A stretch of DNA of 64,000 bases from Patescibacteria group bacterium. Lineage in GTDB: Bacteria; Patescibacteriota; Minisyncoccia; Phycocordibacterales; Zambryskibacteraceae. The notes under the pieces were generated by a model. The model did no database searches. It saw only the letters and a program-made list of their open reading frames with translations, and was not told the DNA's origin. Made by a program: the position numbers and the translations under genes. Location: the NCBI GenBank assembly GCA_004322205.1, contig SCSN01000016.1, forward strand, positions 27,118-91,117, read 5' to 3'. Every line of letters starts with the position of its first letter. Position 1 is the stretch's first letter. Below, in pieces: positions 4,730 to 60,856 of the stretch.

Positions 4730-4730
4730 A

Positions 4731-47157: not shown

Positions 47158-48426
47158 CTATAGTGTTTTGAGTGTCCAGAGAGTCAGGTCGTTCTTATTT
47201 CTGAAGAGAAGTAAGTCTTCTCTCGGAGAGAGTTGGGGATCAATGATGTCAATGTCTCCGCCACTCAAATCTTTGAGGTTAGCAACGAGCTCGGTTTCTC
47301 CCGTTTCCAGATTGAATTTCCAAATATCGTCGGAGAAGGAAACTATCCCCTGATACCACTGGTCGGGTAGCTCGCCGCGCAGCGCTGCCCGCGGCACACC
47401 GCAATAGAGGATCAAAACGGAGAGCTTACTCCAGACGCACTTCTCCGGGAAGGTGGCGGGAGAAACCTGCGTTGTCCCTTCTTTTCGGTTGAAGAGGTTA
47501 AGAAGGATTAGGTCTTGTCTACCTTCCGAAAAGATAGTCCACTCGCCGCCGAGGTGGGTTAAACTTGTGAAGGCTCCTTCACTCCGGAGAACTCTAGAGA
47601 AGTTTTTTGTTTTTGGGTTGAGGAAGAAGAGATAGCCGGGTGCCAGGACGCTCGATTTGCTGGTGAGGGCAATGGTGTCGTCCTTCGGCCAGAGAGCAGT
47701 CCATTCGGAGAGGGGCGACTGCCAGATGAGCGCTGGCTTGTCTCCCTCGGCAGTTCCGAGATAGCCGCGTGAGCCGTTTGAATCTTTCGCGACGTAGAAC
47801 AACTGGTTTCCTTTGGGTGAGAGAGCCAGAGCGGAGATATTTACCGGCAGGAATTTCACGCGGAGCCCCCCAACTTCTTGGCTTGTGGTGGTTGAGGTGG
47901 TTGCTTCCGTCAAAGTTGCGGCGAAAGTTTCAATACCTTCGTCTTTCTCGAGTTGGGCGAGGAAAAGCGAGCCGGACGGACCCCAAAGGACGTTTGCGAT
48001 TTTCGGTATTGTAGTGTTGCTTATTTTTTTCACCGAGCCCGTTTCTGGTTGGGACTCATAGACATGGCCGGTTGCAGCCTCAATGAATCTCACGAAAGTT
48101 ATTCCGGCGGCGCTGAATATTCCGGCGCCGGAAACCGGCACGTCGGAAATTTTCCTTAAGGCGCCGAAAGTTTGTGTTTGGAGCTGGGTTGCTTCTCCTC
48201 CTCCGCTCGGGACTGATACCGGCACGTTGGCTTGTGACCCCGAGGGCGGAGTACCAAAGGGAGATGTGCTCCCGCCAGTTTTTTCTTCTGGGTTTCCCTT
48301 TGAAAAGAAGAAGTACCACCCTCCTCCTAATAAGATGAGGAAGATAAGAATACCGATGCCTGTTAAAATCCTTTTATTCATGCTGATTAATATATGTGGA
48401 AGTGAGGTACAGCTCCTGTAACCCAA
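47158..48426 (-). CDS. hypothetical membrane-anchored / secreted protein
   Basis: It has an N-terminal TM region, a Gly/Pro-rich linker, and a large domain with no confident assignment. Confidence 0.35.
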   Translation of the reverse strand: MGYRSCTSLPHILISMNKRILTGIGILIFLILLGGGWYFFFSKGNPEEKTGGSTSPFGTPPSGSQANVPVSVPSGGGEATQLQTQTFGALRKISDVPVSGAGIFSAAGITFVRFIEAATGHVYESQPETGSVKKISNTTIPKIANVLWGPSGSLFLAQLEKDEGIETFAATLTEATTSTTTSQEVGGLRVKFLPVNISALALSPKGNQLFYVAKDSNGSRGYLGTAEGDKPALIWQSPLSEWTALWPKDDTIALTSKSSVLAPGYLFFLNPKTKNFSRVLRSEGAFTSLTHLGGEWTIFSEGRQDLILLNLFNRKEGTTQVSPATFPEKCVWSKLSVLILYCGVPRAALRGELPDQWYQGIVSFSDDIWKFNLETGETELVANLKDLSGGDIDIIDPQLSPREDLLLFRNKNDLTLWTLKTL

Positions 48427-49301
48427 ATATATCCTGCAGAGACCCCAGCTCTTACGAGCGCTTGTTTGTCTGCGTCTGTTTTTACCTCGTAAGCACCTTG
48501 GAAACCATTTCCTAGGGCTGCTCTTAAAACACTCTTTATCTGTTGTGCTGTTGGACTGGAAATATAGACGAAGTTTATGTCAACACAAGTTCCATTTCTG
48601 TGGCAGTCACTTAGATGTGGAACAGTGGGGGGCCAGGCTTCAGTTATCCAGTATGGTATACCAAGGGTCTGAAGATCTGTGTCAAGGTTTGTTAATTTGT
48701 CCGAGAGCCCCCTTTCTACTTGGTCGTTGTTTTTAACTCTGAAACCGAGTCTTCTTAGGGAAACACAGTTTGTGCATTGACAGGGAACTTGGCTACCTGA
48801 TGTTGTTCCAATACATATGCCTGTCGTCACAGCAGAAGGCTTGGCCACCGGCGGTCTCTGGGCTTTGATTTTGCTCAAGTCGAACTGAAGAGTTCCTGAG
48901 CTTATGGTGTTCAAGAGCGCGAAGGCGCCTATGGCAAGCACCAGTCCCCAGATGGCATTGGTTATAGTTTTCTTTCCCTCTTCCTTCTTGAAAACAGCGT
49001 CGGTTGAAAGGTACTCGATGCCGCCAATAACGATTCTCGCTACCGCCAGCACCCCGGCAATACCAATTGCCAAGTAGAAAATTTTAGGGATGTAGTCGGT
49101 TGGCTTTACCTTGCATTTTGGGTCCTTCACATAGTTGGGGTCGCTCGGGTCGCATGTCCCTACGGTGGTTCCCGGCAGAGGCGAGAGCGGTGTGTATTGT
49201 ATTCCTTGAGCGTCTAGAACGGTGAGGCTTGCAGAAAAAATAAAAATCGCAAGGAAGCTGGTTGCTAAAAGCCGGGGAATATTTTTTGTAGATGCATGCA
49301 T
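48387..49301 (-). CDS. secreted/membrane protein with two TM helices, possible VirB2/TrbC-like pilin of the T4SS-like cluster
   Basis: It has a signal peptide (MHASTKNIPRLLATSFLAIFIFSASL) and two hydrophobic helices (IFYLAIGIAGVLAVARIVIGGIEYL and AIWGLVLAIGAFALL) like VirB2-type pilins. The cysteine-rich C-terminal domain is unassigned. Confidence 0.35.
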   Translation of the reverse strand: MHASTKNIPRLLATSFLAIFIFSASLTVLDAQGIQYTPLSPLPGTTVGTCDPSDPNYVKDPKCKVKPTDYIPKIFYLAIGIAGVLAVARIVIGGIEYLSTDAVFKKEEGKKTITNAIWGLVLAIGAFALLNTISSGTLQFDLSKIKAQRPPVAKPSAVTTGICIGTTSGSQVPCQCTNCVSLRRLGFRVKNNDQVERGLSDKLTNLDTDLQTLGIPYWITEAWPPTVPHLSDCHRNGTCVDINFVYISSPTAQQIKSVLRAALGNGFQGAYEVKTDADKQALVRAGVSAGYIWVTGAVPHFHIY

Positions 49302-49302
49302 G

Positions 49303-50325
49303 CTATTGGCCAAATGAAACAAAGAAATCCTTCTTATCGGATTGGAGCAGGCGTGATATATTTTGCACCGAGAGCGAGATTTGCGATTTGCCCCGAGCTT
49401 CGTCTTCCTGTCGCAGAGTAATTGTGTCTCTCTCATCCTGGCTTTGCGCGGGGTTACTATTTAGACTCCACTGGAATTCAAGCTGTGGGTCGCCACGTTC
49501 CGCCGCGCTGAAGAAATAGGGAACGGCGAGTACTGAAACCTCCTTGTTCTTGAGAGCGAATTCATTTCCCACCGCCTGGTTGTAGAGGGGACCGAAAAGC
49601 GGGTGGTTCTCGTAGAAAACGATTCGCGGGCTGACCGGAGTTATGGTGATTGATTTTTTTGCCCGGAAACGCCCGTCGGTTGACTGCACCTCAACTGCCA
49701 CCACTTCTCTTTTTTCAAAAAGTGAGCCGGTGAAAGTAAAAGAACCTCTCCCGTAGCCAGAGACGCCACCGAGAACAGTTCCGTTGTTTGACCACTGGTA
49801 GATCAAGTTTTCTCTTGGCAGTGTTCGGCTGTTTGAATCTACAAAATGCGGCAGTGCCGCTACAGTGATGTCGCTTTCTTGCGAGTAGAGCGCTTTGCCG
49901 CGGTAGAAAGACGGCGTATATGTTCGTGCCTCCCATAGAAGATCAACAAGAGCCGGACGGATAGTGACCGTATCGCTAAATGGAAGACCATTCAATGGTT
50001 GAACGTAAATTCCAACCGTGGTAACACCGCCCAACCCTCCGGTGGTAATGACTAACCTCTTTTCACCCACGCCCCTTCTTTCAACTTTTCCGTTCACTGT
50101 CCAGCTAATGTTTGCTGCATTGAGATCAACTATAAAACTTTCTGCCTCAATCGAGACGCTCTCGTTTGGACCGGGAGTTTCCGGTATAAGAGTGACGGAA
50201 AGCTGTGATGCTTGAAGGCCGAAGTTAGCGAGCTGGGCAGAGAGTTTTCCTTGGAATCCGGGAAACAGAGTAAGAGCAACGAGAAGGGGGGAAATAAAAT
50301 ATACTATCGAGCTTCTCTTTTTCAT
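49303..50325 (-). CDS. hypothetical secreted protein
   Basis: It has a signal peptide (MKKRSSIVYFISPLLVALTLFPGFQG) and no other assignable domain. Confidence 0.35.
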   Translation of the reverse strand: MKKRSSIVYFISPLLVALTLFPGFQGKLSAQLANFGLQASQLSVTLIPETPGPNESVSIEAESFIVDLNAANISWTVNGKVERRGVGEKRLVITTGGLGGVTTVGIYVQPLNGLPFSDTVTIRPALVDLLWEARTYTPSFYRGKALYSQESDITVAALPHFVDSNSRTLPRENLIYQWSNNGTVLGGVSGYGRGSFTFTGSLFEKREVVAVEVQSTDGRFRAKKSITITPVSPRIVFYENHPLFGPLYNQAVGNEFALKNKEVSVLAVPYFFSAAERGDPQLEFQWSLNSNPAQSQDERDTITLRQEDEARGKSQISLSVQNISRLLQSDKKDFFVSFGQ

Positions 50326-50361
50326 GTATTTCTATTATACCTTTTCCCAGCGAAGTAGTTG

Positions 50362-50817
50362 TCAGGCAGCCCGCTGCAACTCACTGTCCTCGTTTGTTCT
50401 CGGTTCAATTTTTCCGACAACCCTCCCTTCTGTCGGTTGTGTTTTTCTACCAGCCTGGGGGAAGCCAGCGATTTTTTCTAGGGCTTGTATTCCAACGTGG
50501 GAGGCAAGCCGCTCCGCTTTCTCTATCCCGATGAGAAAGATAACTGCCACCGTCCAGCCCGGAAGGATGCTTAACACGGGGATTATCTCAATAATCGCGC
50601 CCGCGCCCATGGCAAGGGTTCTTTTGGGCGAAAGAAAGCTCCGCCCGTAAATTTTGAACCAGAGGTAAAAGGTCAGAAAGGCGAAAATCCAGATTATCCA
50701 ATAGACCATCTGTCCAACGATCGGCAAAAGCTGAATGCCGCCGCCGACAACGTCGTAGAGAAGAGCAACCGAGACCATAAGCCACATCGTGCCGTTGCTG
50801 ATTTCTTTTCGCTCCAT
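50362..50817 (-). CDS. small polytopic membrane protein in the T4SS-like cluster
   Basis: It has four hydrophobic helices. The start is trimmed to MERKEISNGTMW to abut the upstream gene. Confidence 0.35.
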   Translation of the reverse strand: MERKEISNGTMWLMVSVALLYDVVGGGIQLLPIVGQMVYWIIWIFAFLTFYLWFKIYGRSFLSPKRTLAMGAGAIIEIIPVLSILPGWTVAVIFLIGIEKAERLASHVGIQALEKIAGFPQAGRKTQPTEGRVVGKIEPRTNEDSELQRAA

Positions 50818-50818
50818 G

Positions 50819-52645
50819 TTATTGGGTGCCTTGCCCTTCAAGCTCTTGGCGCGCCTTTTGAATTGCCAAAATCTGTGATGGGTCGGAGGTGATAATTTGA
50901 TCTTCGGTATAAGAAGCGATGACCTTGATGGCGACGTGCTTGAGTCCGGCAAAGAAAATTCCCTCTCCAACGTTTGATTCAAGCAGAAGGTATTTTTCTT
51001 CATCGGTCAGGTTGAAAACCTCTTGAAGGTGGTCGATTGCCGTAGGCGACTGTTTCATCAGAAGTTGAATGGACGAATTGGTGATGATGGGAGTGCCGTA
51101 GGGCGAACGCAAGAAGTCGTCCACGTCTTGGGTAATGGTGGAGACTCCGAGGTAATATTTTCTTCCGCGCTTGGCGACGTTCAAAAGAAAAGAGGCGGTA
51201 TCTTCCGACTTCATCATCCACCAAGCCTCGTCAATCACCAGGAGCCGCTTCTTGAGTTCCTTGCGAATGGCGTTCCAAATATAGTGGGTGACGATGTACA
51301 TGGCGATGGGTTTGAGCTCGTCTTCCATGTCGCGCAGGGAGAAGACGACGAATTTTTTGTTAATGTCTACGTTGCTTGGCTGGTTGATGAAGCCTGCCCA
51401 GGTGCCCTTGGTGTATTTGGTAAGTCGCTGGGCAAGCGACTGCCCGCCCTCGAGCCCGGAGAGGACCAGTTCGAAGTCGGAGAGAAGCGGTGGCGAAGCG
51501 CTGCGAAAGTCGGAGTCGGGGGTGATGTCCTTGAGAGCATATGTCTCGGTGATGGCGCGATCAATGAGGGCGTCCTCCTCAGCGGAGAGCCCTCCGAGCA
51601 TCAGTCGAAAGAGACCGACGAGGTTTATGATGTTTGAACGCAAAACATTTGCTCCCGACTCACCCTCGGTCGGCACCGGCAGTTCAAAGGGGTTGATGTG
51701 ATGTTCTGAAGTCAGAGAGATTTTAAAATACCTTCCGCCGACCGCCTCTGCCATGTATTCATACTCCCGTTCGGGATCAATGACCATGATGTCGGTGTCA
51801 AACATGAGAGTGCGCAGAATCTCGAGTTTAGTGGCGTAAGATTTGCCCGCACCGGATTTGGCGAAAATGATTGAGTTGTAGTTCTCGAGCGAAAAGCGGT
51901 CGAAGAGAATGAGGCTGGAATTGTGTCGGTTGATGCCGTAGAGAATTCCCTTGTCAGAAGTGAGGTCAAAAGAAATGAAGGGGAAAAGGCTGGAGAGCGG
52001 TGTTGAGTTGAGTTTAGAGTTTACCGAAAGCAAATCTGTGCCGAGGGGCAGAATGGTCTTGAAACCCTGCTCCTGCTGAAAGAGCGCCGGTTTGACATAG
52101 ACAAGCTTGGATTCAAGGATGGAGCGGATTTCCGATTCAATCTTGTCAAGTTCAGCATCATCTTCGGCGTAGATAGAAATGTAGAGCCCGACGTCAAAAA
52201 GTTTTTCCTGCGCCTGCTGAAGGGCGTCGCGCAGGTTCTCAAGATCCTGATAGGCGGTGTCTAGCATGGGATCGCGCACCAGCCCCTTCTCCTCACGGGC
52301 GTGAATTTGGCTCTGCACTTCGGCGACCTTCTTTTGAAACTGCTTAAGAACCCGCGATGTCTCAATGGGGTGAATGAAAATGGAAACGTCAAAGACTCGG
52401 TCGAGGTTAATGATCGGAGCAAACCAGCTCTCTCCGAGAAAGCGCGGATAAGAGATGACAAAAAAGCTGCGGACGATTTTCTCTCCCAAGTTGAGTTCCT
52501 TAGGACTGACCTTGAGAGCGCTCGGGGCAATTATGTCTCTGAGCTCCAGAGTATTTGCCTCATATATCTCATGCGGCAAAATAGATACACCACCTTCTTC
52601 AGTTCCACTCCTCTTTTTTAATTTGAGAAAATCTAGTAAGGCCAT
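50819..52645 (-). CDS. VirB4/TrbE/TraC-family conjugal-transfer-type ATPase (ATPase portion)
   Basis: Walker A is AKSGAGKSYATK, Walker B is LLVIDEAWWMM, and GYPR...WL is the N-terminal signature of this family. Confidence 0.7.
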   Translation of the reverse strand: MALLDFLKLKKRSGTEEGGVSILPHEIYEANTLELRDIIAPSALKVSPKELNLGEKIVRSFFVISYPRFLGESWFAPIINLDRVFDVSIFIHPIETSRVLKQFQKKVAEVQSQIHAREEKGLVRDPMLDTAYQDLENLRDALQQAQEKLFDVGLYISIYAEDDAELDKIESEIRSILESKLVYVKPALFQQEQGFKTILPLGTDLLSVNSKLNSTPLSSLFPFISFDLTSDKGILYGINRHNSSLILFDRFSLENYNSIIFAKSGAGKSYATKLEILRTLMFDTDIMVIDPEREYEYMAEAVGGRYFKISLTSEHHINPFELPVPTEGESGANVLRSNIINLVGLFRLMLGGLSAEEDALIDRAITETYALKDITPDSDFRSASPPLLSDFELVLSGLEGGQSLAQRLTKYTKGTWAGFINQPSNVDINKKFVVFSLRDMEDELKPIAMYIVTHYIWNAIRKELKKRLLVIDEAWWMMKSEDTASFLLNVAKRGRKYYLGVSTITQDVDDFLRSPYGTPIITNSSIQLLMKQSPTAIDHLQEVFNLTDEEKYLLLESNVGEGIFFAGLKHVAIKVIASYTEDQIITSDPSQILAIQKARQELEGQGTQ

Positions 52646-52650
52646 ACGTT

Positions 52651-53304
52651 CTATGTTTGTAACTGAATCGGTTTCTCTGTTTCCCCCGGGTTCATGATTT
52701 TGTAGAAGAGCTCGATAATCTCTTCTGTTCCCAAGCGAACAACTCGCAAGCCCGAGCGCGCCAGCCCCTGCTCAACCACCGCCAGTCTTTGCTCCAGCTG
52801 GCTGCGGTTTTCCTCGAACGCCTCTTCTTTATTTTCGGAGACAGTTTGAGTGGACTGCTTTTTTGAAAGGAAGGGGATTTTTTGAACTACTCCCCCGCCT
52901 TTCATTTGAAGGAGGGCCGGAGTGTACGGAACAACCGCAAAGAAGTTTTTGGTCATAACATTAGTGCTCTCTGTAAAGGCGCGGATGAACTCAACGTATT
53001 CCTGAATTTGGATTTTGAGAAGGTCATTGGTGATGTTTTTCTTTTGATTTTCGAGTAAGGCAAGGTAGGGGCGGATGTCGTGCTTCCGCGATTGGACAAA
53101 GATTTGGAGAGAAAAATCGAGGGAATTTAGAAAGTCCTGAAATTGCAGTAAAATGGCCGTTTTCTCGTCTTCCGACTTGAGTGAGAAGTTGAGCGATGAG
53201 ACAAGCAAAATAGCTCGCAACCCCCCATCTTTGAGGATGACAACTCCGTCTCGAACATCTTCGATGGGAACAAATTCTTGAGTTGGTTTTGCAGCGACAG
53301 CCAT
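52651..53304 (-). CDS. VirB4 N-terminal-domain-like protein (separate ORF ending 6 nt before the ATPase ORF)
   Basis: …VILKDGGLRAILLVSSLNFSLKSEDEKTAILLQFQDFLNSLDFSLQIFVQSRK… resembles the CagE/TrbE/VirB N-terminal region. The combined length of 217 + 608 aa matches VirB4. Confidence 0.4.
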   Translation of the reverse strand: MAVAAKPTQEFVPIEDVRDGVVILKDGGLRAILLVSSLNFSLKSEDEKTAILLQFQDFLNSLDFSLQIFVQSRKHDIRPYLALLENQKKNITNDLLKIQIQEYVEFIRAFTESTNVMTKNFFAVVPYTPALLQMKGGGVVQKIPFLSKKQSTQTVSENKEEAFEENRSQLEQRLAVVEQGLARSGLRVVRLGTEEIIELFYKIMNPGETEKPIQLQT

Positions 53305-53391
53305 GGAAATAACTTACAACCCACAACCAACAACTTACAATTAAATTCTAACACATCTATTCTATGCTTTATTCTTTCAGCAACCTTTTGC

Positions 53392-53832: not shown

Positions 53833-53872
53833 GTGGTGGAATAAGGAATGTGGAATAGTGAATAAAGAAAAG

Positions 53873-54241
53873 TTAGGAATAAAATTCTTTGGATTTGTTA
53901 ATCAATCCCCGACAAATCCTCTCCGCCTTCATGGACCGATTGTTTATCTTATCAAATTCAGCTTCTGAAATATATCCTATGTCTTTTGCTATGATCAGTT
54001 GGTTTTGAATTTCAATAATAGAACCGGGGGCAATTTGATAGAAATGATTTTTGTCCTTGTATGAAGATCTGCCGAAACCCTCAGCAATGTTAGACGTGAT
54101 TGATACAACCGCTCGCCTCATTTGATTTGCAAGACCGAACTGCTCTTCTTTTGGAAACTTCTTTGTGCTCCTGTAAATAAGAATTACAAGCCCGTGACTT
54201 TCTTTCCAAACGTCAAGGTCTCTGAATGACTGAATCTTCAT
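53873..54241 (-). CDS. four-helix-bundle protein (TIGR02436 / Avd-like)
   Basis: FRDLDVWKESHGLVILIYRSTKKFPKEEQFGLANQMRRAVVSITSNIAEGFGR...IAPGSIIEIQNQLIIAKDIGYISEAEFDKI is the classic pattern. Confidence 0.75.
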   Translation of the reverse strand: MKIQSFRDLDVWKESHGLVILIYRSTKKFPKEEQFGLANQMRRAVVSITSNIAEGFGRSSYKDKNHFYQIAPGSIIEIQNQLIIAKDIGYISEAEFDKINNRSMKAERICRGLINKSKEFYS

Positions 54242-54300
54242 TGTTCTTTATTCCCCATTCATTATTCAAATCCAACATTCTTGCAGCTTGAGTCTCGAAG

Positions 54301-55095
54301 CTAGATTGGTGGTTCGCGATACGGGTCCTGATCTCTATACTGCGCCACGCGGTCTTGTTCTTGCTCCGCTCCCTTGCCCGTTATCTCTGCGAGTTTTTCT
54401 TCAACTGCAGTTTGGAGCGGAACGTGACCAGCTTGGCTTGGAGAAGTGCTTGGAGCGGCGGCCTCCCCAGTGGGTAAATTAAAGAGCGGTTCGTTTGGTT
54501 TGCTCTCTGATTCTTGCTTCTCCGGCGGAGTCAGTTCTTCTCTATACGGCATAACATCTTTATTTATTTTTGGTTGTTGGTCGTTAGTTGGAGGTTGTTG
54601 GCTGTCTATCGCCTGCGCCTCTTCCCACCACTTTTTTTCTTGGAGTTGCGTTTGTTGTGTGAATGTTGTCGGAGTAGCTTGAGTCGGAGTTTCTGGTGCC
54701 GCTGGTGATTGAGCGTTGCTTGTTATTTGTTGCTCCATTGTCTGTTGTTGGCTGTTTGTCGTTGGTTGTAAGTTGTCCGGTTCTTTTTCCTTCGGTAGCC
54801 ACCCTTTAACTTCTTTGAAAATTCTTTCCTGCACTTCGGCATCAATGTCACGGGCAAACAGTTCGGGAATAGAGAGCTCTCTTTGGATGTTTGTCTTGAA
54901 GTCGCCAAAAAATTCCAGTCCGATCAGAACGAACAGCACCTCGTTTTCAAGAGCGGTAGATTGATCGCTAGAAAAATTATTTTTCTTTGCGATTTCAGAT
55001 ATTACCAAGGACCACCGATTCTGCGAGAGAAAATTTCTTATCTCCTTCGGCGCGGTTTTTATTTGTTCTCCTAATGTCTCTCGTGTTTCATCCAT
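54301..55095 (-). CDS. hypothetical protein with Q/T/P/N-rich low-complexity centre
   Basis: It is an ORF whose middle region is encoded by TTG/GTT-rich simple sequence. Confidence 0.35.
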   Translation of the reverse strand: MDETRETLGEQIKTAPKEIRNFLSQNRWSLVISEIAKKNNFSSDQSTALENEVLFVLIGLEFFGDFKTNIQRELSIPELFARDIDAEVQERIFKEVKGWLPKEKEPDNLQPTTNSQQQTMEQQITSNAQSPAAPETPTQATPTTFTQQTQLQEKKWWEEAQAIDSQQPPTNDQQPKINKDVMPYREELTPPEKQESESKPNEPLFNLPTGEAAAPSTSPSQAGHVPLQTAVEEKLAEITGKGAEQEQDRVAQYRDQDPYREPPI

Positions 55096-55098
55096 AGT

Positions 55099-57099
55099 TT
55101 ATGGCCTCGGAGGGGAACCTCCAGGTGTGGTTCCAGCCGGCGGCGGAGCGGCTGGAGGTGTTGTTGGTGCCGCTCCTGGCGGCGCGCCCGCTGGCGGCGG
55201 AGCGGCAGCTGCTACCTGTTTTTTGACTTCTTCATCGATGATTTCTTTAAGTTTATCGCCGGTTGTTTTTTCCTTAATGTCTTTTCTAATCTTTTCAGCC
55301 GCGACCTTATGTTTCCTGCTCACCAAAGGCGACCAGAATGTTCTTCTTTCTATATGCTCTGCGTATTGCCTGGCTCTTTCTTTTCCTTCTCTTTCAGTTT
55401 CTATTCTCGCTTTACTACGAGCGTCGGTTATTTCTTTTTGATATCGCTCTTCAATTATACTTGCGTCTGCTTTGTATTTCTCTTGAGCAGCGTCCTCCAT
55501 TTTTTTTGCTTGTGCTGGATTAGTTTGTTTTATAGCAGCTGCCTGCCTCCTTGCTTGATTTAATTGATTTTTGGAGATGTCAAGATCGAAATCTCTCTTA
55601 AGTTTTGCGCCGAGCACTTTACTTTTTGCTTTATCATGTACCTCAACATCGGAGACTCGCTTGAATTCTTTACCAAGCTCTTCTCTTCTCTTCACTTGTT
55701 TCTCGAAGAACGCTTCGTATCCCCCCTTGCCGCCAGCTTTTCCTATTCCTAAGTCTCCCGCACCGACCGCTTCGCCGACCTTGCCAAGCGGTGTTCGCAC
55801 ATCAAAGCCCCCCTTTGCGATGGCTTTGCTAGTGCCGAGTGTGAGTCTGGCAAGACGACTCTCCGGCGCTCTTTTTCTCAACCATTCGCTTTCAGCAAAT
55901 TTGCTGGCGGCGCGGCCGATTGTCTGTCTGCCAACAAACCCAGCTGTTCCCACCGCCCCTCCCAACACCTTTCCCATAATTTTTTCTCCGACACTGCCTG
56001 CCTGACCAGCGACGGTTTTGGAAATGATGAGTGTGGCGACTGCAAAAATGATGACGATGACAAAGTTCATGACCAGCCCGAATGTTCCCTGCTGGGCTGC
56101 TCCTCCCGCCCCTCCCCCTGCTATACCAGACAGACTACTTGCGAGAACTGATGTGCTGGTAGTGACGCTTCCCGCGGGCGTGCTGGATATCCCTGTTTGG
56201 GCAACGGAACTGCTTATGACTGTAAGCACAACCCAAGTGAGGATCATATAGAGCGGGGCGAAGACTGCTTCTCCCGTGAGCTTACTGCTCCAGAAATTGC
56301 TTACTTTCTCCCCCCAACCGCCCGGCAGAACCGCCCGCAGAAATACCACGGGCGACAAGATAAGAAGAAAAATAAAGTTCACGTATCGTATGAGAAACAT
56401 TATTGAGACAGCAAGAAAGACAAATGCCAACACGACAAAAAAAGCTGATCCGCCGAAAGAGATCGTGGCAAGCTTCCCGAAATCGTTACCGACTTGCTCT
56501 AATATTTTTCCACCCTGTGTTGGGTCAAAGAAGCTCGTCAGACCAAGCGGTTGCATAAAACTGTTGGAGAGTCCGGAACCGAAGATGTCTATTCTCCCAC
56601 TAGGGTTGGCTATGGGAGCTATTCTTTCGTAAAAGAGAACCGCCACAATATTCGAAGCGTCAATGATGAGTTTGGTGAAGAATAAGCTGAAGTTTATGAG
56701 AAGAGCGGCGATGATGATGCCGACGAGTGTCTTCTTCCAGTTCACTTTTTCAAGTCCGAGTATGGTGCCGATGGCGATGTAGAGGAGGATGAAAATGAAC
56801 GCCATATTGGCAACGTCCCGAATCACTCCCCAGGCGATGTTTATGCCCGTGATGCCAGAGAGATTTTGCGCAAGATCCACAACGGTGAATTGCAAAACCG
56901 CATTGAGAAGCACCCCCGCCAGCCAGAGTATCCAGCTTGAGAGCAGCAGTGGTATTGTGATCAGGTCAGCAAACGCTTCGCAAATTCCTCCGAACGGGAA
57001 ACTGCACTTTGCTTCGGCAAAGTAAAAACCAAAAGGGCCGGCCGCAAGAAGGACAAAAAGGACAACAATCAGACCTATTCGAAAGTATTTTTTCATCAC
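55099..57099 (-). CDS. VirB6/TrbL-like polytopic membrane protein with Lys/Glu-rich and Pro/Ala-rich C-terminal tail
   Basis: It has at least 7 TM helices in the N-terminal 420 aa, and a charged coiled-coil followed by a PPAGAPPGAAPTTPPAAPPPAG tail. Confidence 0.5.
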   Translation of the reverse strand: MMKKYFRIGLIVVLFVLLAAGPFGFYFAEAKCSFPFGGICEAFADLITIPLLLSSWILWLAGVLLNAVLQFTVVDLAQNLSGITGINIAWGVIRDVANMAFIFILLYIAIGTILGLEKVNWKKTLVGIIIAALLINFSLFFTKLIIDASNIVAVLFYERIAPIANPSGRIDIFGSGLSNSFMQPLGLTSFFDPTQGGKILEQVGNDFGKLATISFGGSAFFVVLAFVFLAVSIMFLIRYVNFIFLLILSPVVFLRAVLPGGWGEKVSNFWSSKLTGEAVFAPLYMILTWVVLTVISSSVAQTGISSTPAGSVTTSTSVLASSLSGIAGGGAGGAAQQGTFGLVMNFVIVIIFAVATLIISKTVAGQAGSVGEKIMGKVLGGAVGTAGFVGRQTIGRAASKFAESEWLRKRAPESRLARLTLGTSKAIAKGGFDVRTPLGKVGEAVGAGDLGIGKAGGKGGYEAFFEKQVKRREELGKEFKRVSDVEVHDKAKSKVLGAKLKRDFDLDISKNQLNQARRQAAAIKQTNPAQAKKMEDAAQEKYKADASIIEERYQKEITDARSKARIETEREGKERARQYAEHIERRTFWSPLVSRKHKVAAEKIRKDIKEKTTGDKLKEIIDEEVKKQVAAAAPPPAGAPPGAAPTTPPAAPPPAGTTPGGSPPRP

Positions 57100-58631
57100 G
57101 GATTTACGAAAATGAGTCTTATTTGCGTCTGCGCCCTATCACCCACCAAATCTGTCACGTCGTATCGTAGTGAGTAAAGGCCAGAAGTGTTTGTATCAAC
57201 CGTTCCTGACACGGTAACTCTTGAAGTTATGTCTCCATCCTCTGCGTCAGTTGCCACAAACCCCGGCTCGTTGTAGGTGTCCCCAACCTTAAGATTCATT
57301 GTCTTAGGGTCGTTGAGAGTGACAACAGGCGGAGTGTTTGTAATCGGTCCGAAGGGAAATCCGCCGCCGGGTCCGGTGACACTCGGTTGAACAATAATTG
57401 TGCGGATTGCTTGCGCTGTTTGCCCTGAAGAGTTGGTTACTGTGTAGGTCAAGTTGTATGTACCGGGCACCGAAGTGTCCACAATTCCTGAAACTACAAC
57501 TTGCCCTGTGAGACTGCCCTCGTTGGGATCGAGGGCGACATAGCCGGGTTCGATGTATGCATCGCCCACCGAAAGTGTCATGGGATTTGGATCTGCCAAG
57601 AAAATTGTAAGGGTGGCGGGGGAGCCAGGTATAGCCACCCCACCGGAGCCGCCAGAGAGCTGCTGCCCGTTAAACAAGCCGCTGCCCCCGAACACTTCAC
57701 CGAGAACCTTGCCAATAATTGCATCTATAACAGCCCCGATCGTTTCGTCCAGTTCGTCCGCGACCTCAAGAGATCTTTGTTTTGTTCCCAAAACTTGATT
57801 GAGTCCCTCCTCTATGACAACACCCGGTGTTTTTGTCGGTCCTCGCTTTAGACATTTTCCAGAACCAGTCATTCCACTCTGGGCGTCGGCAAAATCATCT
57901 CGTTCGAGACAATCTGAGAAAGAAAGAAAACCATCTGCCCAGTTAAGACGGGTAAGCTCAATACTTTTCTCACCGGCAAGTCTTACAGAGAGTTGAGCTT
58001 GCGCGTCCAAAACGGCGCTGTAAGGATTTCCCTGCGGTGTTTGCGTTAGTTGATACCAACCGCCCCACCCTCCCTGGCTGAAATCGCCTTTGATGAACTG
58101 ATCTACGTTTTGCACCACCCCACTCAAGGTACAGCTTCCGATGTATGGGTCGCGTGAGCGTATTCGCGAACTGTTGTAGTTAAGAGCAATTGCTTGTTGA
58201 ACTTCAAGTCGAAACGGACTGCAGAGCGCTCCGAACCCAGAGCTTCGGATGAAGTCTCCGGCAACCACGTCTCCTACTCCAAGAAAAAACTGTTCGGGGT
58301 CTGTGGCAAAAAGTGGTCCTCCTTCAAACCCCCTTTTTGCCCAATTGGTGATGCTCTGAGTGATGGCACTCGCGGCGACCTTGGCGGCAACCCAGGCCAG
58401 ACCATCAAGGCTGGTGGGGATGCCAAGTCTGGACAAAACACTCAGTAATCCACCTTTTCCTGTTTCTTTTTCTCGCAATTTTCCCTCGCTTACCGGGACG
58501 TCTCCACTCCCAAGAATACTAATGGCTTCGGTCTCTCGAGGATAAAAGAAAGCGAGGTTTGCGAACAAAAGGGAAACAATCAAAGCCGCAGCCGCGGTAT
58601 TTCTCGCTCGTGTAAGTAGAGAGCGTCTCAT
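57096..58631 (-). CDS. secreted protein with two C-terminal Ig-like (DUF5011-type) domains
   Basis: It has a signal/TM region, and the tandem repeats LSVGDAYIEPGYVALDPNEGSLTGQVVVSGIVDTSVPGTYNLTYTV and LKVGDTYNEPGFVATDAEDGDITSRVTVSGTVDTNTSGLYSLRYDV are Ig-like. Confidence 0.5.
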   Translation of the reverse strand: MRRSLLTRARNTAAAALIVSLLFANLAFFYPRETEAISILGSGDVPVSEGKLREKETGKGGLLSVLSRLGIPTSLDGLAWVAAKVAASAITQSITNWAKRGFEGGPLFATDPEQFFLGVGDVVAGDFIRSSGFGALCSPFRLEVQQAIALNYNSSRIRSRDPYIGSCTLSGVVQNVDQFIKGDFSQGGWGGWYQLTQTPQGNPYSAVLDAQAQLSVRLAGEKSIELTRLNWADGFLSFSDCLERDDFADAQSGMTGSGKCLKRGPTKTPGVVIEEGLNQVLGTKQRSLEVADELDETIGAVIDAIIGKVLGEVFGGSGLFNGQQLSGGSGGVAIPGSPATLTIFLADPNPMTLSVGDAYIEPGYVALDPNEGSLTGQVVVSGIVDTSVPGTYNLTYTVTNSSGQTAQAIRTIIVQPSVTGPGGGFPFGPITNTPPVVTLNDPKTMNLKVGDTYNEPGFVATDAEDGDITSRVTVSGTVDTNTSGLYSLRYDVTDLVGDRAQTQIRLIFVNP

Positions 58632-59671
58632 TGAGATTTAGTGATGAAAACTCCGCCTGATTCAGAGAAAATTATACCACGCGTCGCCAGATAATTTTCT
58701 AATGTTTTCAACAAAGATGACTCTTCGGCGCTGTTCTCCTTGATTTTTCTGATGGATGTTAACCCCGGCAGAGGATCGGACTTGATAAGCAGAAGGTTTT
58801 TGAATTCGGCCGACGTTTGCAGGTAGTTATTCATGAGAGAGACTTGGGTAGCGGCGATTTCTTTCGGTACAGACAGTTTCTGCAGGTCTTGTGCAAGCGC
58901 AATATAGGCATCCGAGACTTGAGTGATACGTTCCTTAAATTTAGGACTTTCTGGATCAACCAGTTGTTTGTAGTCAGCGGAAGCCCCTTCAAGTTTACTG
59001 CGTGTGTTTTGGTAGACAGAGAGGAGGTTGTTGGCATAGCTAAGCAAGGTCGCCTGCGTTGCCCCCGTCGGGATGATTTGTAAGTCTGCTAGGGAGTATG
59101 TCTTTTTCGGCTGCGGTGTGGATATACTTCCGGCAGCTCGAGCGGCAATATCAAAAATAGAGTCGGGGTTAATGCCCCCCGACTGCTTCATGGACAGATA
59201 ATCAGCAAAAAGTTTTTTACTGATCTCATCTGTTTGGTTTTCACTCTGATTTGCCGTCGAGTCATTCCTTTCGAATATCGGCAGAGCTGAATTCGCTGTT
59301 TCTTTTTGTTTTGCTATCTCCTTCTCGTCTGTCAAGCCGTTACCGTTTGTATCGGGATTGTCTGGATCGGTTCCCCAGATCACCTCTTCCCAGTCCTTGA
59401 GCCCGTCGCCGTCGCTGTCGAGCTCTGAAACAGCGGGCAGGTTTTGGGACGAGGAGGGCTTTGTTTGGGAATAGATTGCCGGTTTCTGATTTTGCGAAAA
59501 GTAAAATATTGCCCCCACCAATGCGGCAGCAAGGATGAAGATGAGGATGATCTTTTTGCTCGGCACGCTCTTATTATAGCCCGCATTTGAGAAGTTTGGT
59601 ATAATTAAAGAGCTTATGCGACATCTTCTCTTGCCGTTTTTTCTCGCCTTTCTTTTTGTTGTTTGGCTCAC
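58628..59671 (-). CDS. membrane-anchored protein with Asp-rich calcium-binding (thrombospondin type-3-like) repeats
   Basis: It has a TM helix (IILIFILAAALVGAIFYF) and SELDSDGDGLKDWEEVIWGTDPDNPDTNGNGLTDEKE. The true start is probably downstream of 59671, because the first about 35 codons are dubious and overlap ORF 59616. Confidence 0.45.
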   Translation of the reverse strand: MSQTTKRKARKNGKRRCRISSLIIPNFSNAGYNKSVPSKKIILIFILAAALVGAIFYFSQNQKPAIYSQTKPSSSQNLPAVSELDSDGDGLKDWEEVIWGTDPDNPDTNGNGLTDEKEIAKQKETANSALPIFERNDSTANQSENQTDEISKKLFADYLSMKQSGGINPDSIFDIAARAAGSISTPQPKKTYSLADLQIIPTGATQATLLSYANNLLSVYQNTRSKLEGASADYKQLVDPESPKFKERITQVSDAYIALAQDLQKLSVPKEIAATQVSLMNNYLQTSAEFKNLLLIKSDPLPGLTSIRKIKENSAEESSLLKTLENYLATRGIIFSESGGVFITKSQ

Positions 59672-60800: not shown

Positions 60801-60856
60801 TTTTTGACTCCCGACAACATGTTTGGAGTGCGCTGAAAATTTGCCGGTTTTCATAA

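What the first reader, a model, noticed from the sequence alone, without database searches (positions are those of the whole stretch)
48387..59671. T4SS-like gene cluster (VirB4-like ATPase, PrgI/VirB3-like, VirB6-like, putative pilin, Ig-domain and Ca-binding surface proteins) with a split VirB4
Consecutive minus-strand genes encode the following. A two-helix secreted protein like VirB2 pilins. A VirB4/TrbE-type ATPase whose N-terminal domain is a separate ORF ending 6 nt before the ATPase ORF starts (52651 and 52645). A PrgI-family protein. A large VirB6/TrbL-like polytopic membrane protein with a Pro/Ala-rich tail. Secreted proteins with DUF5011-type Ig domains and thrombospondin-type Ca-binding repeats. 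No relaxase or coupling protein is present in the window, which suggests a DNA-uptake or surface-structure system rather than a conjugative element. The VirB4 split could be a real two-gene arrangement, a frameshift or a pseudogene.
Basis: partly seen in the sequence, partly recalled or inferred. Interest (0 to 1): 0.6.

Follow-up and report, generated by a model that had tools for sequence, protein, structure and literature searches.

The report
Known Patescibacteria type IV secretion locus
This is the chromosomal type IV secretion system typical of ultrasmall Patescibacteria; its "split" ATPase is a conserved two-gene arrangement already described in 2025, so the finding is real but ordinary, apart from a "pilin" that carries a cell-wall-peptidase-like domain.

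Summary
Window 47158-59671 (minus strand) is a tightly packed operon. It encodes a VirB4 ATPase (NCBIfam CD1110 family, 5.8e-112, above the curated cut-off), a PrgI/VirB3 protein, a VirB6/TrbL-like polytopic protein (family shown only through orthologues), a PF18895 pilin-like protein, and secreted Ig-like and TSP3 proteins. No coupling protein or relaxase was found among the 20 other ORFs tested, which include every untested ORF over 250 aa.

The VirB4 "split" is not a frameshift or a pseudogene. The 217-aa ORF and the 608-aa ORF match complementary parts of the same full-length VirB4 models. All 120 best database homologues of the 217-aa ORF are 210-232 aa. In 79 related loci the two genes are always separate, with spacers of -4 to 590 nt in all three frame offsets.

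The system has already been published (Quinonero-Coronel et al. 2025, PMC12102498; Wang et al. 2023, PMC10633639). Those papers cover the TrsD-like N-terminal protein next to virB4, the VirB2-like pilins, the absence of a relaxase and the position beside dnaA/ksgA.

Two details were not found in the papers I searched. The "pilin" is a VirB2-like hairpin fused to a Hedgehog/MepA/VanY-type (LAS) zinc-peptidase-like domain. A 23S-rRNA-IVS-type gene flanked by inverted repeats sits at varying intergenic sites of the operon.

The parts
58628..59671 (-). First gene of the operon: 347-aa protein with one N-terminal membrane segment and bacterial thrombospondin-type-3 (Ca-binding) repeats. Its role is unknown.
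   Evidence: PF18884 TSP3_bac 7.8e-6, 26.1 bits against a cut-off of 25. One hydrophobic segment at residues 41-59. tblastn homologue in 42 of 84 related loci, always upstream of the 511-aa gene. 4-nt overlap with the next gene.
57096..58631 (-). 511-aa secreted or anchored protein: a conserved Cys-containing N-terminal domain of about 330 aa with unknown fold, followed by two Ig-like domains.
   Evidence: PF16403 Bact_surface_Ig-like, two copies, 1.8e-41. N-terminal hydrophobic segment. tblastn homologue in 62 of 84 related loci at the same position. A profile of 35 orthologues finds nothing significant in the PDB.
55099..57099 (-). VirB6/TrbL-like polytopic membrane protein (666 aa; 665 in the NCBI product), with about 7 hydrophobic segments, a charged C-terminal region of about 300 aa and a Pro/Ala tail.
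   Evidence: No Pfam or NCBIfam hit of its own. 762 homologues found, some carrying PF19590 TrbL_3 or PF04610 TrbL. 5 of 33 aligned orthologues hit PF04610, best 3.7e-6. The L003 orthologue has a weak TrbL_3 hit. Hydropathy. No match to solved VirB6 structures by sequence profile.
54301..55095 (-). 264-aa protein with no membrane segment: a globular N-terminal part of about 100 aa and a Gln/Pro-rich tail. Fast-evolving, function unknown.
   Evidence: No family hit. Detectable by tblastn in only 20 of 84 loci, but a gene of 249-292 aa occupies the same slot in L001 and L003.
53839..54267 (-). Inserted cassette: a 23S-rRNA-intervening-sequence-type four-helix-bundle gene (53873-54241) bracketed by 38-nt inverted repeats. 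Probably not part of the secretion machine.
   Evidence: PF05635 2.4e-37. Inverted-repeat arms at 53839-53876 and 54230-54267, 76% complementary. Present in 18 of the 84 fetched loci, or 17 of the 82 distinct ones, at different intergenic sites of the operon.
53392..53832 (-). PrgI/VirB3-like small membrane protein (146 aa, two membrane segments). Predicted to anchor the ATPase to the membrane.
   Evidence: PF12666 PrgI 9.9e-11. Segments at 24-42 and 44-62. Detected in 80 of 84 loci, always upstream of TrsD, directly or with only an IVP gene between.
52651..53304 (-). TrsD-like protein (217 aa, cytoplasmic): the N-terminal part of VirB4 encoded as a separate gene.
   Evidence: NCBIfam: VirB4_plasma model positions 104-230 of 894 (7.9e-10); CD1110 VirB4 model positions 2-111 of 752 (3.8e-5); TrsD/TraD NF041427 (1.9e-4). 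Precomputed PF26593 'TraC-like' on the exact database copy of this protein (P0001) and on all 120 best homologues, which are all 210-232 aa. Always a separate ORF in the 79 related loci examined.
50819..52645 (-). VirB4 ATPase (608 aa) lacking the first ~180-270 residues of canonical VirB4. Walker A and Walker B are intact.
   Evidence: NF045971 5.8e-112, 375 bits above the 325 cut-off, model positions 182-733 of 752. P-loop_TraG 6e-27. 4ag5 3e-40. 78-87% identical across 80 species.
50362..50817 (-). Small polytopic membrane protein (151 aa), function unknown.
   Evidence: No family hit. Two hydrophobic regions that could hold 2-4 membrane segments. ATG lies one base after the VirB4 stop. Homologue detected in 42 of 84 loci at the same position.
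49303..50325 (-). 340-aa secreted protein, probably made of repeated beta-rich (Ig-like?) modules. Function unknown.
   Evidence: N-terminal hydrophobic segment. Homologue in 78 of 84 loci. Its profile gives only a weak Ig-like hit in the PDB (Hoc, 0.013).
48387..49301 (-). Pilin-like protein (304 aa): signal peptide, VirB2-like two-helix hairpin (about residues 67-133), Pro-rich linker, and an extracytoplasmic LAS (Hedgehog/MepA/VanY-type) zinc-peptidase-like domain (about residues 168-304).
   Evidence: PF18895 at 70-131, 4.4e-9. Mbov_0395 pilin-like family 9.8e-6. The C-terminal domain profile hits Sonic hedgehog N-domain at 8.5e-6 and aligns the E, H, HxxxxxxD and E residues. AF2 model with pLDDT 93.4. 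Foldseek: MepA 4e-4, about 38 Hedgehog N-domain chains at probability 0.99-1.00, and VanY/VanXYc more weakly (E 0.05-0.17, probability 0.54-0.87). E221, H229, H234, D241, E272 and H300 are at least 90% conserved.
47158..48381 (-). 407-aa protein (422-aa ORF) with an N-terminal membrane anchor and a conserved extracytoplasmic domain of unknown fold. Last conserved gene of the cluster.
   Evidence: No family hit. Homologue in 66 of 84 loci, always directly after the pilin gene. Its profile finds nothing in the PDB.

Best explanation
[quoted passage not shown] The source genome is labelled 'Patescibacteria group bacterium', and its closest relatives are labelled Zambryskibacteria, Paceibacterota or Parcubacteria.

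Shown here:
- One tightly packed operon encodes a VirB4 motor split into two polypeptides: a TrsD-like N-terminal piece and a 608-aa ATPase.
- It also encodes a PrgI/VirB3 anchor, a VirB6-like channel protein and a VirB2-like hairpin protein carrying an extracytoplasmic LAS-peptidase-like domain.
- Five to six further exported or membrane proteins are encoded in the same operon.
- The split is an ancient and universally retained gene arrangement.

Inferred:
- TrsD supplies the part of the VirB4 N-terminal domain that VirB3 wraps around in the R388 structure. PrgI, TrsD and VirB4 would then assemble into the membrane-docked ATPase, with VirB6 forming the membrane conduit.
- The hairpin-peptidase protein sits with its peptidase domain outside the membrane, where it cuts peptidoglycan (its own or the host's), taking the place of the VirB1-type hydrolase.
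- The fast-evolving Ig-like, TSP3 and other exported proteins form the host-facing surface part.
- There is no relaxase or coupling protein nearby, and the equivalent locus is essential for epibiotic growth in Southlakia epibionticum. The machine therefore most likely serves contact-dependent exchange with, or attachment to, a host cell (protein or other cargo, possibly through a pilus) rather than conjugation.
For: Component identities.

Split ATPase:
- The two ORFs cover complementary parts of the same VirB4 models: CD1110 positions 2-111 versus 182-733, and VirB4_plasma positions 104-230 versus 288-893.
- All 120 best homologues of the N-terminal ORF are 210-232 aa, among 7754 hits.
- In all 79 related loci examined TrsD ends in a stop codon. 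In the 50 loci where the VirB4 match starts at residue 1 with ATG, the spacer is -4 to 590 nt, in all three frame offsets. In at least three loci (L017, L054, L056) an IVP gene lies between the two genes.

Synteny and conservation:
- The order PcrA-KsgA-347-511-VirB6-(264)-PrgI-TrsD-VirB4-(151)-340-pilin-422-YidC-DnaA-DnaN recurs in 80 GTDB species representatives.
- Median identity to the window is 80.7% for VirB4, against 64.0% for DnaA and 46.6% for DnaN. The exported components are only 27-36% identical.

Context and literature:
- No T4CP or relaxase among 20 other window ORFs.
- TrsD next to virB4, PF18895 pilins, the lack of relaxases and the dnaA/ksgA neighbourhood are published (PMC12102498).
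- The Southlakia T4SS is essential and lacks a recognisable coupling protein and relaxase (PMC10633639).
- VirB3 wraps around the VirB4 N-terminal domain in R388 (PMC9259494).

Peptidase-like domain. 135 of the 150 best representatives of this domain also carry the pilin hairpin.
Against: - No function was tested, and no cargo, effector or pilus is identifiable from sequence.
- The window's VirB6-like protein has no direct family hit. Its assignment rests on orthologues.
- TrsD scores far below NCBIfam's TrsD cut-off (21 versus 200 bits), and its profile finds no solved structure. Its equivalence to the VirB4 N-terminus therefore rests on modest E-values (7.9e-10, 3.8e-5) plus complementarity.
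- No VirB8-like protein was recognised.
- Only 64 kb of a 101-kb contig of an incomplete genome was seen, so a coupling protein or relaxase may lie elsewhere. PMC12102498 reports many VirD4 homologues far from virB4.
- Only 19 of 72 pilin-like ORFs (in 70 relatives plus the window) carry this LAS-type domain. The other C-terminal domains are unidentified, so a peptidoglycan-cutting role cannot be generalised.
Confidence: 0.72

Rival explanations
1. The locus is a DNA-uptake (competence-type) machine, analogous to H. pylori ComB or the archaeal Ced system, importing DNA or nucleotides from the host.
For: - No relaxase or coupling protein.
- VirB4 has a weak hit to the CedB DNA-import family, 5.5e-9 over about 70 residues.
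- In relative L001 a ComEC-type gene (PF03772) lies just upstream of ksgA, next to the cluster.
- PMC12102498 notes comF, recG and radA near T4SS genes in the ABY1 class.
Against: - The CedB hit is many orders of magnitude weaker than the conjugative VirB4 hits.
- The FEMS review (PMC12857230) summarises Wang et al. 2023 as showing that loss of ComEC does not affect viability in Southlakia, whereas the T4SS is essential. T4SS essentiality is therefore not explained by ComEC-dependent uptake.
- The ComEC neighbour is absent in the window, where PcrA occupies that position.
Confidence: 0.12
2. The locus is a conventional conjugative element (ICE or integrated plasmid) whose relaxase, oriT and coupling protein lie outside the window.
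For: - VirB4 is most similar to conjugative VirB4 families (CD1110, Mycoplasma ICE, TraC).
- The pilin resembles a Mycoplasma ICE pilin-like protein.
- Only 64 kb of a 101-kb contig was seen.
- The window also holds a serine recombinase and a transposase, but 26-40 kb away.
Against: - The cluster sits at the same chromosomal site, between ksgA and yidC/dnaA, in 80 species, with gene order preserved and VirB4 at 78-87% identity. This indicates vertical inheritance of a core locus.
- No integrase or repeats flank the cluster.
- GC content (0.46-0.50) is like the rest of the window.
- Relaxases were found in only 103 of 3035 Patescibacteria genomes (PMC12102498).
Confidence: 0.04
3. The VirB4 split is a frameshift, a sequencing or assembly indel, or a decaying pseudogene.
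For: The two ORFs are only 5 nt apart and in different frames, which is what a single indel would produce.
Against: - All 120 best homologues of the N-terminal ORF are stand-alone proteins of 210-232 aa from independent assemblies.
- In all 79 related loci the two genes are separate, with different spacer lengths (-4 to 590 nt) and frame offsets. In some an inserted gene lies between them.
- Both halves are highly conserved: median 63% and 81% identity.
- TrsD next to VirB4 is a published arrangement in plasmid pGO1 and in Patescibacteria.
Confidence: 0.01
4. The apparatus does not translocate cargo. It only builds a surface filament or adhesion structure, or remodels the envelope at the host contact site.
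For: - A pilin-like gene and several exported Ig-like or Ca-binding proteins dominate the operon.
- There is no coupling protein to recruit substrates.
- The fused peptidase-like domain points to wall remodelling.
Against: - A VirB6-like channel protein and the extreme conservation of the ATPase are equally expected for a translocator.
- T4SSs without a coupling protein that still secrete are known (Ptl and Brucella VirB, as cited in PMC12102498).
- Sequence data cannot discriminate between the two readings.
Confidence: 0.11

Closest known systems
Patescibacteria-clade T4SS (Quinonero-Coronel et al. 2025, Microb Genom, PMC12102498; essential T4SS of Southlakia epibionticum, Wang et al. 2023, Cell, PMC10633639)
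   Same: - VirB4 with a separate TrsD-like protein beside it.
- PrgI/VirB3, VirB6 and a PF18895 VirB2-like pilin.
- No relaxase or coupling protein nearby.
- Chromosomal position next to dnaA, dnaN, rnpA and ksgA, as reported for Paceibacteria.
   Different: Nothing in kind. Three details are not in the main text of that paper. First, this clade has a single pilin-like gene of 260-430 aa with a C-terminal extension, which here is a LAS-peptidase-like domain; Saccharimonadia have arrays of short pilins instead. Second, a PF05635 cassette is inserted in the operon. Third, yidC is inverted in this genome.
MPF-FATA conjugative T4SS of Gram-positive bacteria, pGO1/pSK41 subclass (TrsD + TrsE) and CTn2/CD1110-type VirB4
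   Same: - The best family match of the ATPase is the CD1110 VirB4 family, above its cut-off.
- The N-terminal VirB4 segment is a separate TrsD-like gene, as in pGO1.
- A PrgI/TrsC-type VirB3 is present.
- Monoderm architecture without VirB7, VirB9 or VirB10.
   Different: - No relaxase, coupling protein or oriT.
- Not on a mobile element.
- Has a VirB2-like pilin, which Gram-positive systems lack.
- No recognisable PrgK/TrsG-type hydrolase or VirB8-like protein.
- TrsD similarity is far below the NCBIfam cut-off (21 versus 200 bits).
LAS zinc metallopeptidases (E. coli MepA, VanY/VanXY D,D-peptidases, Hedgehog N-terminal domain: the 'Hh/DD-peptidase' fold)
   Same: The C-terminal domain of the pilin-like protein has the same fold (Foldseek probability 0.99-1.00 to MepA and Hedgehog N-domains, weaker to VanY) and conserves the equivalents of Shh H135, H141, D148 and E177, plus a C-terminal H-x-H.
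   Different: - It is fused behind a T4SS pilin hairpin and a Pro-rich linker.
- It carries extra conserved cysteines (CxxC, CHxNGTC).
- No Pfam model detects it.
- Activity and substrate are untested.
VirB1-type cell-wall hydrolases of T4SSs (VirB1; PrgK, TraG and TcpG in Gram-positives)
   Same: A predicted peptidoglycan-cleaving domain encoded inside the T4SS operon and exposed outside the membrane.
   Different: - Different enzyme class: a LAS peptidase rather than a lytic transglycosylase or CHAP/NlpC-P60 enzyme.
- Different anchoring: a VirB2-like hairpin.
- It works like a VirB1 by inference only and is not a family member.

Membership tests
VirB4 ATPase (T4SS signature protein) | Score above a curated VirB4 family threshold | tested here: met
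   NF045971 'VirB4-like conjugal transfer ATPase, CD1110 family': 375.3 bits against a cut-off of 325, E 5.8e-112. HerA/DUF87 and FtsK-type families are far weaker or absent.
VirB4 ATPase (T4SS signature protein) | Intact Walker A and Walker B motifs in a TraG-type P-loop domain | tested here: met
   KSGAGKS and LLVIDEA are present in the translation. P-loop_TraG 6e-27. VirB4 C-terminal domain structure 4ag5, 3e-40.
VirB4 ATPase (T4SS signature protein) | Full-length N-terminal domain in the same polypeptide | tested here: not met
   The 608-aa protein aligns only from model position 182 of 752 (CD1110), 274 of 792 (TIGR00929) and 269 of 800 (TraC). The missing part matches the separate 217-aa ORF.
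Patescibacteria-clade T4SS (PMC12102498) | TrsD-like gene adjacent to virB4 | tested here: met
   The 217-aa ORF ends 5 nt upstream of virB4. It hits the N-terminal parts of VirB4 models and TrsD NF041427. The arrangement is conserved in 79 related loci.
Patescibacteria-clade T4SS (PMC12102498) | VirB3 (PrgI), VirB6 and PF18895 pilin near virB4; no relaxase or T4CP nearby | tested here: met
   for the components. for the absence of T4CP and relaxase among the other window ORFs.
Patescibacteria-clade T4SS (PMC12102498) | VirB4 falls inside the monophyletic Patescibacteria clade nested in MPF-FATA | not tested
   No reference VirB4 set (CONJScan) was available for a tree. Indirect evidence: the best model is an MPF-FATA-type family, and all 80 closest genomic relatives are Patescibacteria MAGs.
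Patescibacteria-clade T4SS (PMC12102498) | Chromosomal location beside dnaA, dnaN, rnpA and ksgA (Paceibacteria pattern) | tested here: met
   KsgA at 59973-60854, YidC at 46416-47150, DnaA at 44108-45526 and DnaN at 42791-43891 (ORF, matched to relatives). An rnpA-like ORF at 46013-46360 was identified by eye only. The cumulative GC-skew minimum is near 42-44 kb. The same neighbours occur in relatives.
TrsD/TraD family (NCBIfam NF041427) | Score above the family cut-off (200 bits) | tested here: not met
   21.3 bits, E 1.9e-4. It is related but not a member by NCBI's criterion. The precomputed Pfam assignment is PF26593 'TraC-like', a model my local Pfam copy did not report.
Conjugative element (plasmid or ICE T4SS) | Relaxase and type IV coupling protein associated with the mating-pair genes | tested here: not met
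   None among the cluster genes or among 20 other ORFs of the 64-kb window. The rest of the genome was not seen.
Conjugative element (plasmid or ICE T4SS) | Mobile-element behaviour: variable presence or position, flanking integrase and repeats | tested here: not met
   Same position and gene order in 80 species. No recombinase within 25 kb of the cluster.
VirB2/TrbC-type T4SS pilin | Signal peptide plus a two-helix hydrophobic hairpin matching a pilin profile | tested here: met
   PF18895 4.4e-9, with weak PF04956 TrbC at 0.11 (16 of 31 family members hit TrbC). The model shows helices at 67-99 and 103-133.
VirB2/TrbC-type T4SS pilin | Small protein (about 100-130 aa) consisting of the hairpin only, able to pack into a pilus | tested here: not met
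   The protein is 304 aa, with a folded C-terminal domain of about 140 aa. 64 of 72 pilin-like ORFs (window and relatives) have a C-terminal extension of at least 100 aa. Pilus formation cannot be tested here.
LAS zinc peptidase (MepA / VanY / Hedgehog N-domain fold) | LAS fold | tested here: met
   AF2 model with pLDDT 93.4. Foldseek top hits are MepA (4e-4) and about 38 Hedgehog N-domain chains at probability 0.99-1.00, with VanY/VanXYc weaker (E 0.05-0.17, probability 0.54-0.87). Two unrelated weak hits (5jir, 6td9) also appear in the top 50. The sequence profile hits ShhN at 8.5e-6.
LAS zinc peptidase (MepA / VanY / Hedgehog N-domain fold) | H-x6-D and C-terminal His zinc ligands plus catalytic Glu/His | tested here: met
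   H234-x6-D241, H300 (HFH), H229 and E272 are at least 90% conserved (positions H67, D74, H133, H62 and E105). They align with the Shh sequence [24 protein letters not shown]...YYES. The Shh residue numbering is from my own knowledge of 1VHH.
LAS zinc peptidase (MepA / VanY / Hedgehog N-domain fold) | Zinc binding and peptidase activity on peptidoglycan | not testable with these tools
   Needs biochemistry.
VirB6/TrbL | Match to PF04610 or related models; polytopic protein with at least 5 membrane segments | tested here: inconclusive
   The window protein has no hit. 5 of 33 orthologues hit PF04610 and some hit PF19590. About 7 hydrophobic segments. No match to solved VirB6.

The most novel reading that the evidence does not exclude
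In this Paceibacteria lineage the only VirB2-like protein of the T4SS is not a simple pilin. It is a hairpin-anchored carrier of an exchangeable extracytoplasmic domain, which here is a catalytically competent Hedgehog/MepA-type zinc peptidase. This domain would act as the system's missing VirB1-like wall-cutting enzyme. If the hairpin still polymerises, the domain would be displayed along a pilus to breach the host cell wall. Separately, an IVS-like hairpin cassette carrying a PF05635 gene moves between intergenic sites of the PrgI-TrsD-VirB4 segment and may process the operon mRNA.
Probability: 0.35. Interest if true: 0.55.

Novelty: already known. Interest (0 to 1): 0.3.

Why it matters
The locus is a textbook example of the Patescibacteria T4SS, the first T4SS shown to be essential for its bearer's growth (Southlakia epibionticum on its host). 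The finding adds no new kind of system.

Three points from the comparative data are useful to specialists:
- The TrsD/VirB4 gene fission is invariant across 80 species. VirB4 is more conserved than DnaA, which argues for very strong selection on the motor.
- In this clade the pilin gene is a single long fusion protein. Its outer domain differs between species, and in about a quarter of them it is a Hedgehog/MepA-like peptidase-like domain. This gives a concrete, testable candidate for how these epibionts open a cell wall.
- The exported components evolve much faster than the motor, as expected for host-facing parts.

Tried and rejected
- Frameshift or pseudogene reading of the split: rejected by homologue lengths and by 79 junctions.
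- Programmed frameshift: rejected, because spacer length and frame are not conserved.
- FtsK/HerA reading of the ATPase: rejected.
- Direct family assignment of the VirB6-like protein failed in Pfam, NCBIfam and a PDB profile search. Only the orthologue route worked.
- The TrsD single sequence and its profile found nothing in the PDB.
- Profiles of the 511-aa, 422-aa and 340-aa accessory proteins found nothing significant in the PDB.
- The whole-protein Foldseek search of the pilin model was uninformative. The search with the domain alone worked.
- The second large group of pilin C-terminal domains (L001 type, HxxGGNAVD...HWH) looks LAS-like by eye. This was not supported: no PDB hit, and hhalign against the first group gave probability 0.8% and E 0.07. 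My impression that L056 carries an SLT-like domain and L033 an HExxH domain was not confirmed by Pfam.
- Look-ups of the window's own contig to see beyond 64 kb failed: no exact product on record.
- The RNA fold of the whole IVP cassette is no more stable than shuffled sequence (z = 0.34). Only the terminal inverted repeat stands out.

Full report
**What is in the sequence.** Between about 47.2 and 59.7 kb the minus strand carries twelve tightly packed ORFs. Several junctions are 4-nt overlaps (59671/58631/57099) or a stop codon followed by one base and an ATG (50819/50817, 49303/49301). This indicates a single, translationally coupled operon. Two of the mechanical ORF starts are too long. The pilin gene starts at 49301 (304 aa), which is identical to the NCBI product P0121. 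The small membrane gene starts at 50817. The flanks are housekeeping genes. On one side lie PcrA/UvrD and KsgA. On the other lie YidC, an rnpA-like ORF (assigned by eye only), DnaA and DnaN (ORF, matched to relatives). The cumulative GC-skew minimum lies at about 42-44 kb, so the cluster lies right next to the replication origin. The exact 217-aa protein is on record as EPN83_03470 of a 'Patescibacteria group bacterium' on a 101-kb contig.

**Component identities.**
- The 608-aa protein is a VirB4. NCBIfam NF045971 (VirB4-like conjugal transfer ATPase, CD1110 family) scores 5.8e-112 and 375 bits, above the curated cut-off of 325. The Mycoplasma-ICE VirB4, TraC and VirB4_CagE models follow.
- Pfam gives P-loop_TraG 6e-27 and AAA_10 8e-11, while DUF87/HerA is only 3.9e-6. 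The solved VirB4 C-terminal domain 4ag5 matches at 3e-40 and R388 TrwK at 2e-7. Walker A and Walker B are intact. The refutation condition 'FtsK or HerA' is therefore not met.
- PrgI (PF12666, 1e-10), the T4SS pilin (PF18895, 5.7e-9), two Bact_surface_Ig-like domains (PF16403, 1.8e-41) and a TSP3_bac repeat (7.8e-6, just above the cut-off) are confirmed.
- The 666-aa protein has no family hit of its own and no sequence match to solved VirB6. It does have about seven hydrophobic segments and the Pro/Ala tail. Among its orthologues (E <= 1e-71, 31-46% identity), 5 of 33 hit PF04610 TrbL/VirB6 (best 3.7e-6) and some carry PF19590 TrbL_3. I accept VirB6-like on that transitive evidence.
- Five further proteins have no recognisable family: the 407-aa product of the 422-aa ORF, the 340-aa, 151-aa and 264-aa proteins, and the N-terminal 330 aa of the 511-aa protein. 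Profiles built from 34-35 orthologues found nothing in the PDB.
- All of the exported candidates have a single N-terminal hydrophobic segment. TrsD, VirB4, the 264-aa protein and the IVP protein have none.

**The split VirB4.** The 217-aa ORF ends with TAG at 52653-52651. Five bases later the 608-aa ORF begins with ATG in another frame. Three lines of evidence show that this is a genuine, ancient two-gene arrangement.
- Complementarity. In the same full-length VirB4 models the short ORF covers the N-terminus and the long ORF covers the remainder. For CD1110 this is positions 2-111 of 752 (3.8e-5) against 182-733. For VirB4_plasma it is 104-230 of 894 (7.9e-10) against 288-893. The short ORF also hits the TrsD/TraD family at 1.9e-4.
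- Homologue lengths. Of 7754 database homologues of the short ORF, the best 120 (64-100% identity, from many independent assemblies) are all 210-232 aa. They carry the precomputed Pfam family PF26593 'TraC-like'.
- Junctions. I fetched 80 species-representative loci through VirB4. In all 79 loci examined, TrsD ends in a stop codon. Where the VirB4 match starts at residue 1, VirB4 has its own ATG. The spacer ranges from a 4-nt overlap to 590 nt in all three relative frames. In at least three loci (L017, L054, L056) a whole gene is inserted between the two.

There is thus no fused form, no conserved slippery site and no decay. Median identity to the window is 63% for TrsD and 81% for VirB4, and VirB4 is more conserved than DnaA (64%) or DnaN (47%) in the same loci.

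**Surroundings.** The gene order PcrA-KsgA-347-511-VirB6-(264)-PrgI-TrsD-VirB4-(151)-340-pilin-422-YidC-DnaA-DnaN recurs across the 80 species. This behaviour fits a vertically inherited core locus, not a mobile element. Twenty other ORFs of the window, including every untested ORF over 250 aa, contain no VirD4/TcpA-type coupling protein and no relaxase. They do include type IV pilus genes (PilM, PilB), a reverse transcriptase, a Mutator transposase and a serine recombinase far from the cluster. I could not see the remaining 37 kb of the contig.

**Comparison with what is known.** The system is already published.
- Quinonero-Coronel et al. 2025 (PMC12102498) surveyed 3035 Patescibacteria genomes. 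They found VirB4 in 2417 of them, forming a monophyletic clade nested in MPF-FATA.
- They also report PrgI/VirB3, VirB6 and PF18895/VirB2-like pilins, a near-absence of relaxases, and a location beside dnaA, dnaN, rnpA, ksgA and rpmH in Paceibacteria.
- Wang et al. 2023 (PMC10633639) showed that the equivalent locus of Southlakia epibionticum is essential for epibiotic growth and lacks a recognisable coupling protein and relaxase.
- A 2025 review (PMC12857230) lists these systems as a new branch of the T4SS superfamily.

[quoted passage not shown] PrgI, TrsD and VirB4 are neighbours in essentially every locus, directly or with only an IVP gene between them. I infer that PrgI and TrsD together form the membrane-docking module for the 608-aa ATPase, and that VirB6 provides the membrane conduit. 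The exported proteins evolve three times faster than the motor (27-36% against 81% identity), as expected for host-facing parts. The cargo is unknown. Given the missing relaxase and coupling protein and the essentiality data, contact-dependent exchange with, or attachment to, a host cell is more likely than conjugation. DNA import cannot be excluded.

**The pilin-like protein.** This goes beyond what I found in the literature. The 304-aa protein has a signal peptide, a VirB2-like hairpin (PF18895; model helices 67-99 and 103-133), a Pro-rich linker and a C-terminal domain of about 140 aa.
- A profile of that domain hits the Sonic hedgehog N-terminal domain in the PDB at 8.5e-6. It aligns TEAWPP..H....CHxNGTCVD...YE with [24 protein letters not shown]...YYE.
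- Its AF2 model (pLDDT 93.4) matches E. coli MepA (4e-4) and about 38 Hedgehog N-domain chains at probability 0.99-1.00, with VanY/VanXYc more weakly (E 0.05-0.17). Two unrelated weak hits aside, the top 50 hits are all LAS zinc peptidases.
- H229, H234-x6-D241, E272 and H300 are at least 90% conserved. By my knowledge of 1VHH these correspond to Shh H135, H141, D148, E177 and H181/H183.
- The topology places this domain outside the membrane.
- Against 1.84 billion representatives the domain has 1071 relatives (824 at 1e-10 or better). Of the best 150, 135 also carry the pilin hairpin; most of the remaining 15 are short and may be fragments.
- More distant database homologues (E 8e-17 to 8e-9) combine the same hairpin with VanY, NlpC/P60 + Amidase_5 or SLT domains.
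- In the syntenic position of the relatives there is normally exactly one hairpin ORF. Of 72 such ORFs (window included), 64 have a C-terminal extension of at least 100 aa. Nineteen are of this LAS type, 16 belong to a second type whose LAS-like motifs I could not confirm statistically, and the rest are singletons with no Pfam match.
- No stand-alone short pilin occurs within 10 kb of VirB4 in any locus.

I read this as a hairpin-anchored, exchangeable outer domain. In this genome it is probably a peptidoglycan peptidase standing in for the VirB1-type hydrolase. Whether the hairpin still polymerises is open. The main text of PMC12102498 does not mention such fusions.

**Verdict.** The system is already known, so interest is low to moderate. 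The residual value lies in the pilin-peptidase fusion and, as a side observation, the IVS-like cassette in the operon.

Noticed in passing
window 53839-54267 (gene 53873-54241, minus strand); related loci L001, L006, L007, L014, L017, L019, L021, L032, L033, L038, L054, L056, L057, L062, L068, L073, L078: A PF05635 '23S rRNA intervening sequence protein' gene (four-helix bundle, bAvd-like) is bracketed by 38-nt inverted repeats. It sits inside the T4SS operon, and in relatives it occupies different intergenic sites: before PrgI, between PrgI and TrsD, between TrsD and VirB4, and once after the 422-aa gene. Predicted pairing between its flanks is stronger (median duplex dG -26.9 kcal/mol) than for control genes (-17 to -21). 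It looks like a mobile IVS-like hairpin cassette that prefers the PrgI-TrsD-VirB4 segment. It might create RNase III sites in the mRNA.
   Followed up: partly
TrsD/VirB4 spacers in L001, L021, L038, L052, L057, L059, L061, L066, L068, L077: The spacers between TrsD and VirB4 in these loci are 65-117 nt long, have no ORF, and appear by eye to contain inverted repeats. They may be empty or miniature versions of the IVS-like cassette. The window itself has only a 5-nt spacer.
   Followed up: no
window 46416-47150 (yidC, minus strand): yidC is co-directional with the T4SS operon and starts 8 nt after the stop of the 422-aa ORF. In all 61 related loci where it was detected, yidC is on the opposite strand (in L001 and L003 as part of an rnpA-yidC unit). 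This is a local inversion specific to this genome, or an assembly quirk.
   Followed up: partly
window 47158-59671 relative to oriC (about 43-45 kb): The whole T4SS operon is transcribed toward the replication origin, that is, head-on to the replication fork. The orientation relative to dnaA is the same in the 80 relatives.
   Followed up: no
related loci L005-L084: VirB4 is more conserved between species (median 80.7% identity to the window) than DnaA (64.0%), PcrA (54.2%), YidC (50.6%), KsgA (49.4%) or DnaN (46.6%) in the same loci. VirB6 and all exported components are only 27-36% identical.
   Followed up: yes
window 3722-4834 (-), 6480-7712 (+), 20320-21978 (-) with tRNA-Arg 20371-20443 (+): The window holds a reverse transcriptase (RVT_1, 2.7e-23), a Mutator-family transposase (1.2e-84) and a large serine recombinase whose 3' end overlaps a tRNA-Arg gene. 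The recombinase lies in a lower-GC stretch (0.445). These may be mobile elements and appear unrelated to the T4SS.
   Followed up: no
window 16702-17691 (-) and 32836-34521 (+): Type IV pilus genes lie in the same window: PilM (1.9e-10) and a PilB/GspE-type ATPase (T2SSE, 9.4e-115). In cultivated Patescibacteria the T4P is the other essential envelope machine.
   Followed up: no
L001 1-1226: In relative L001 a ComEC-type competence gene (DUF4131 + PF03772) replaces PcrA upstream of ksgA, next to the T4SS cluster.
   Followed up: no
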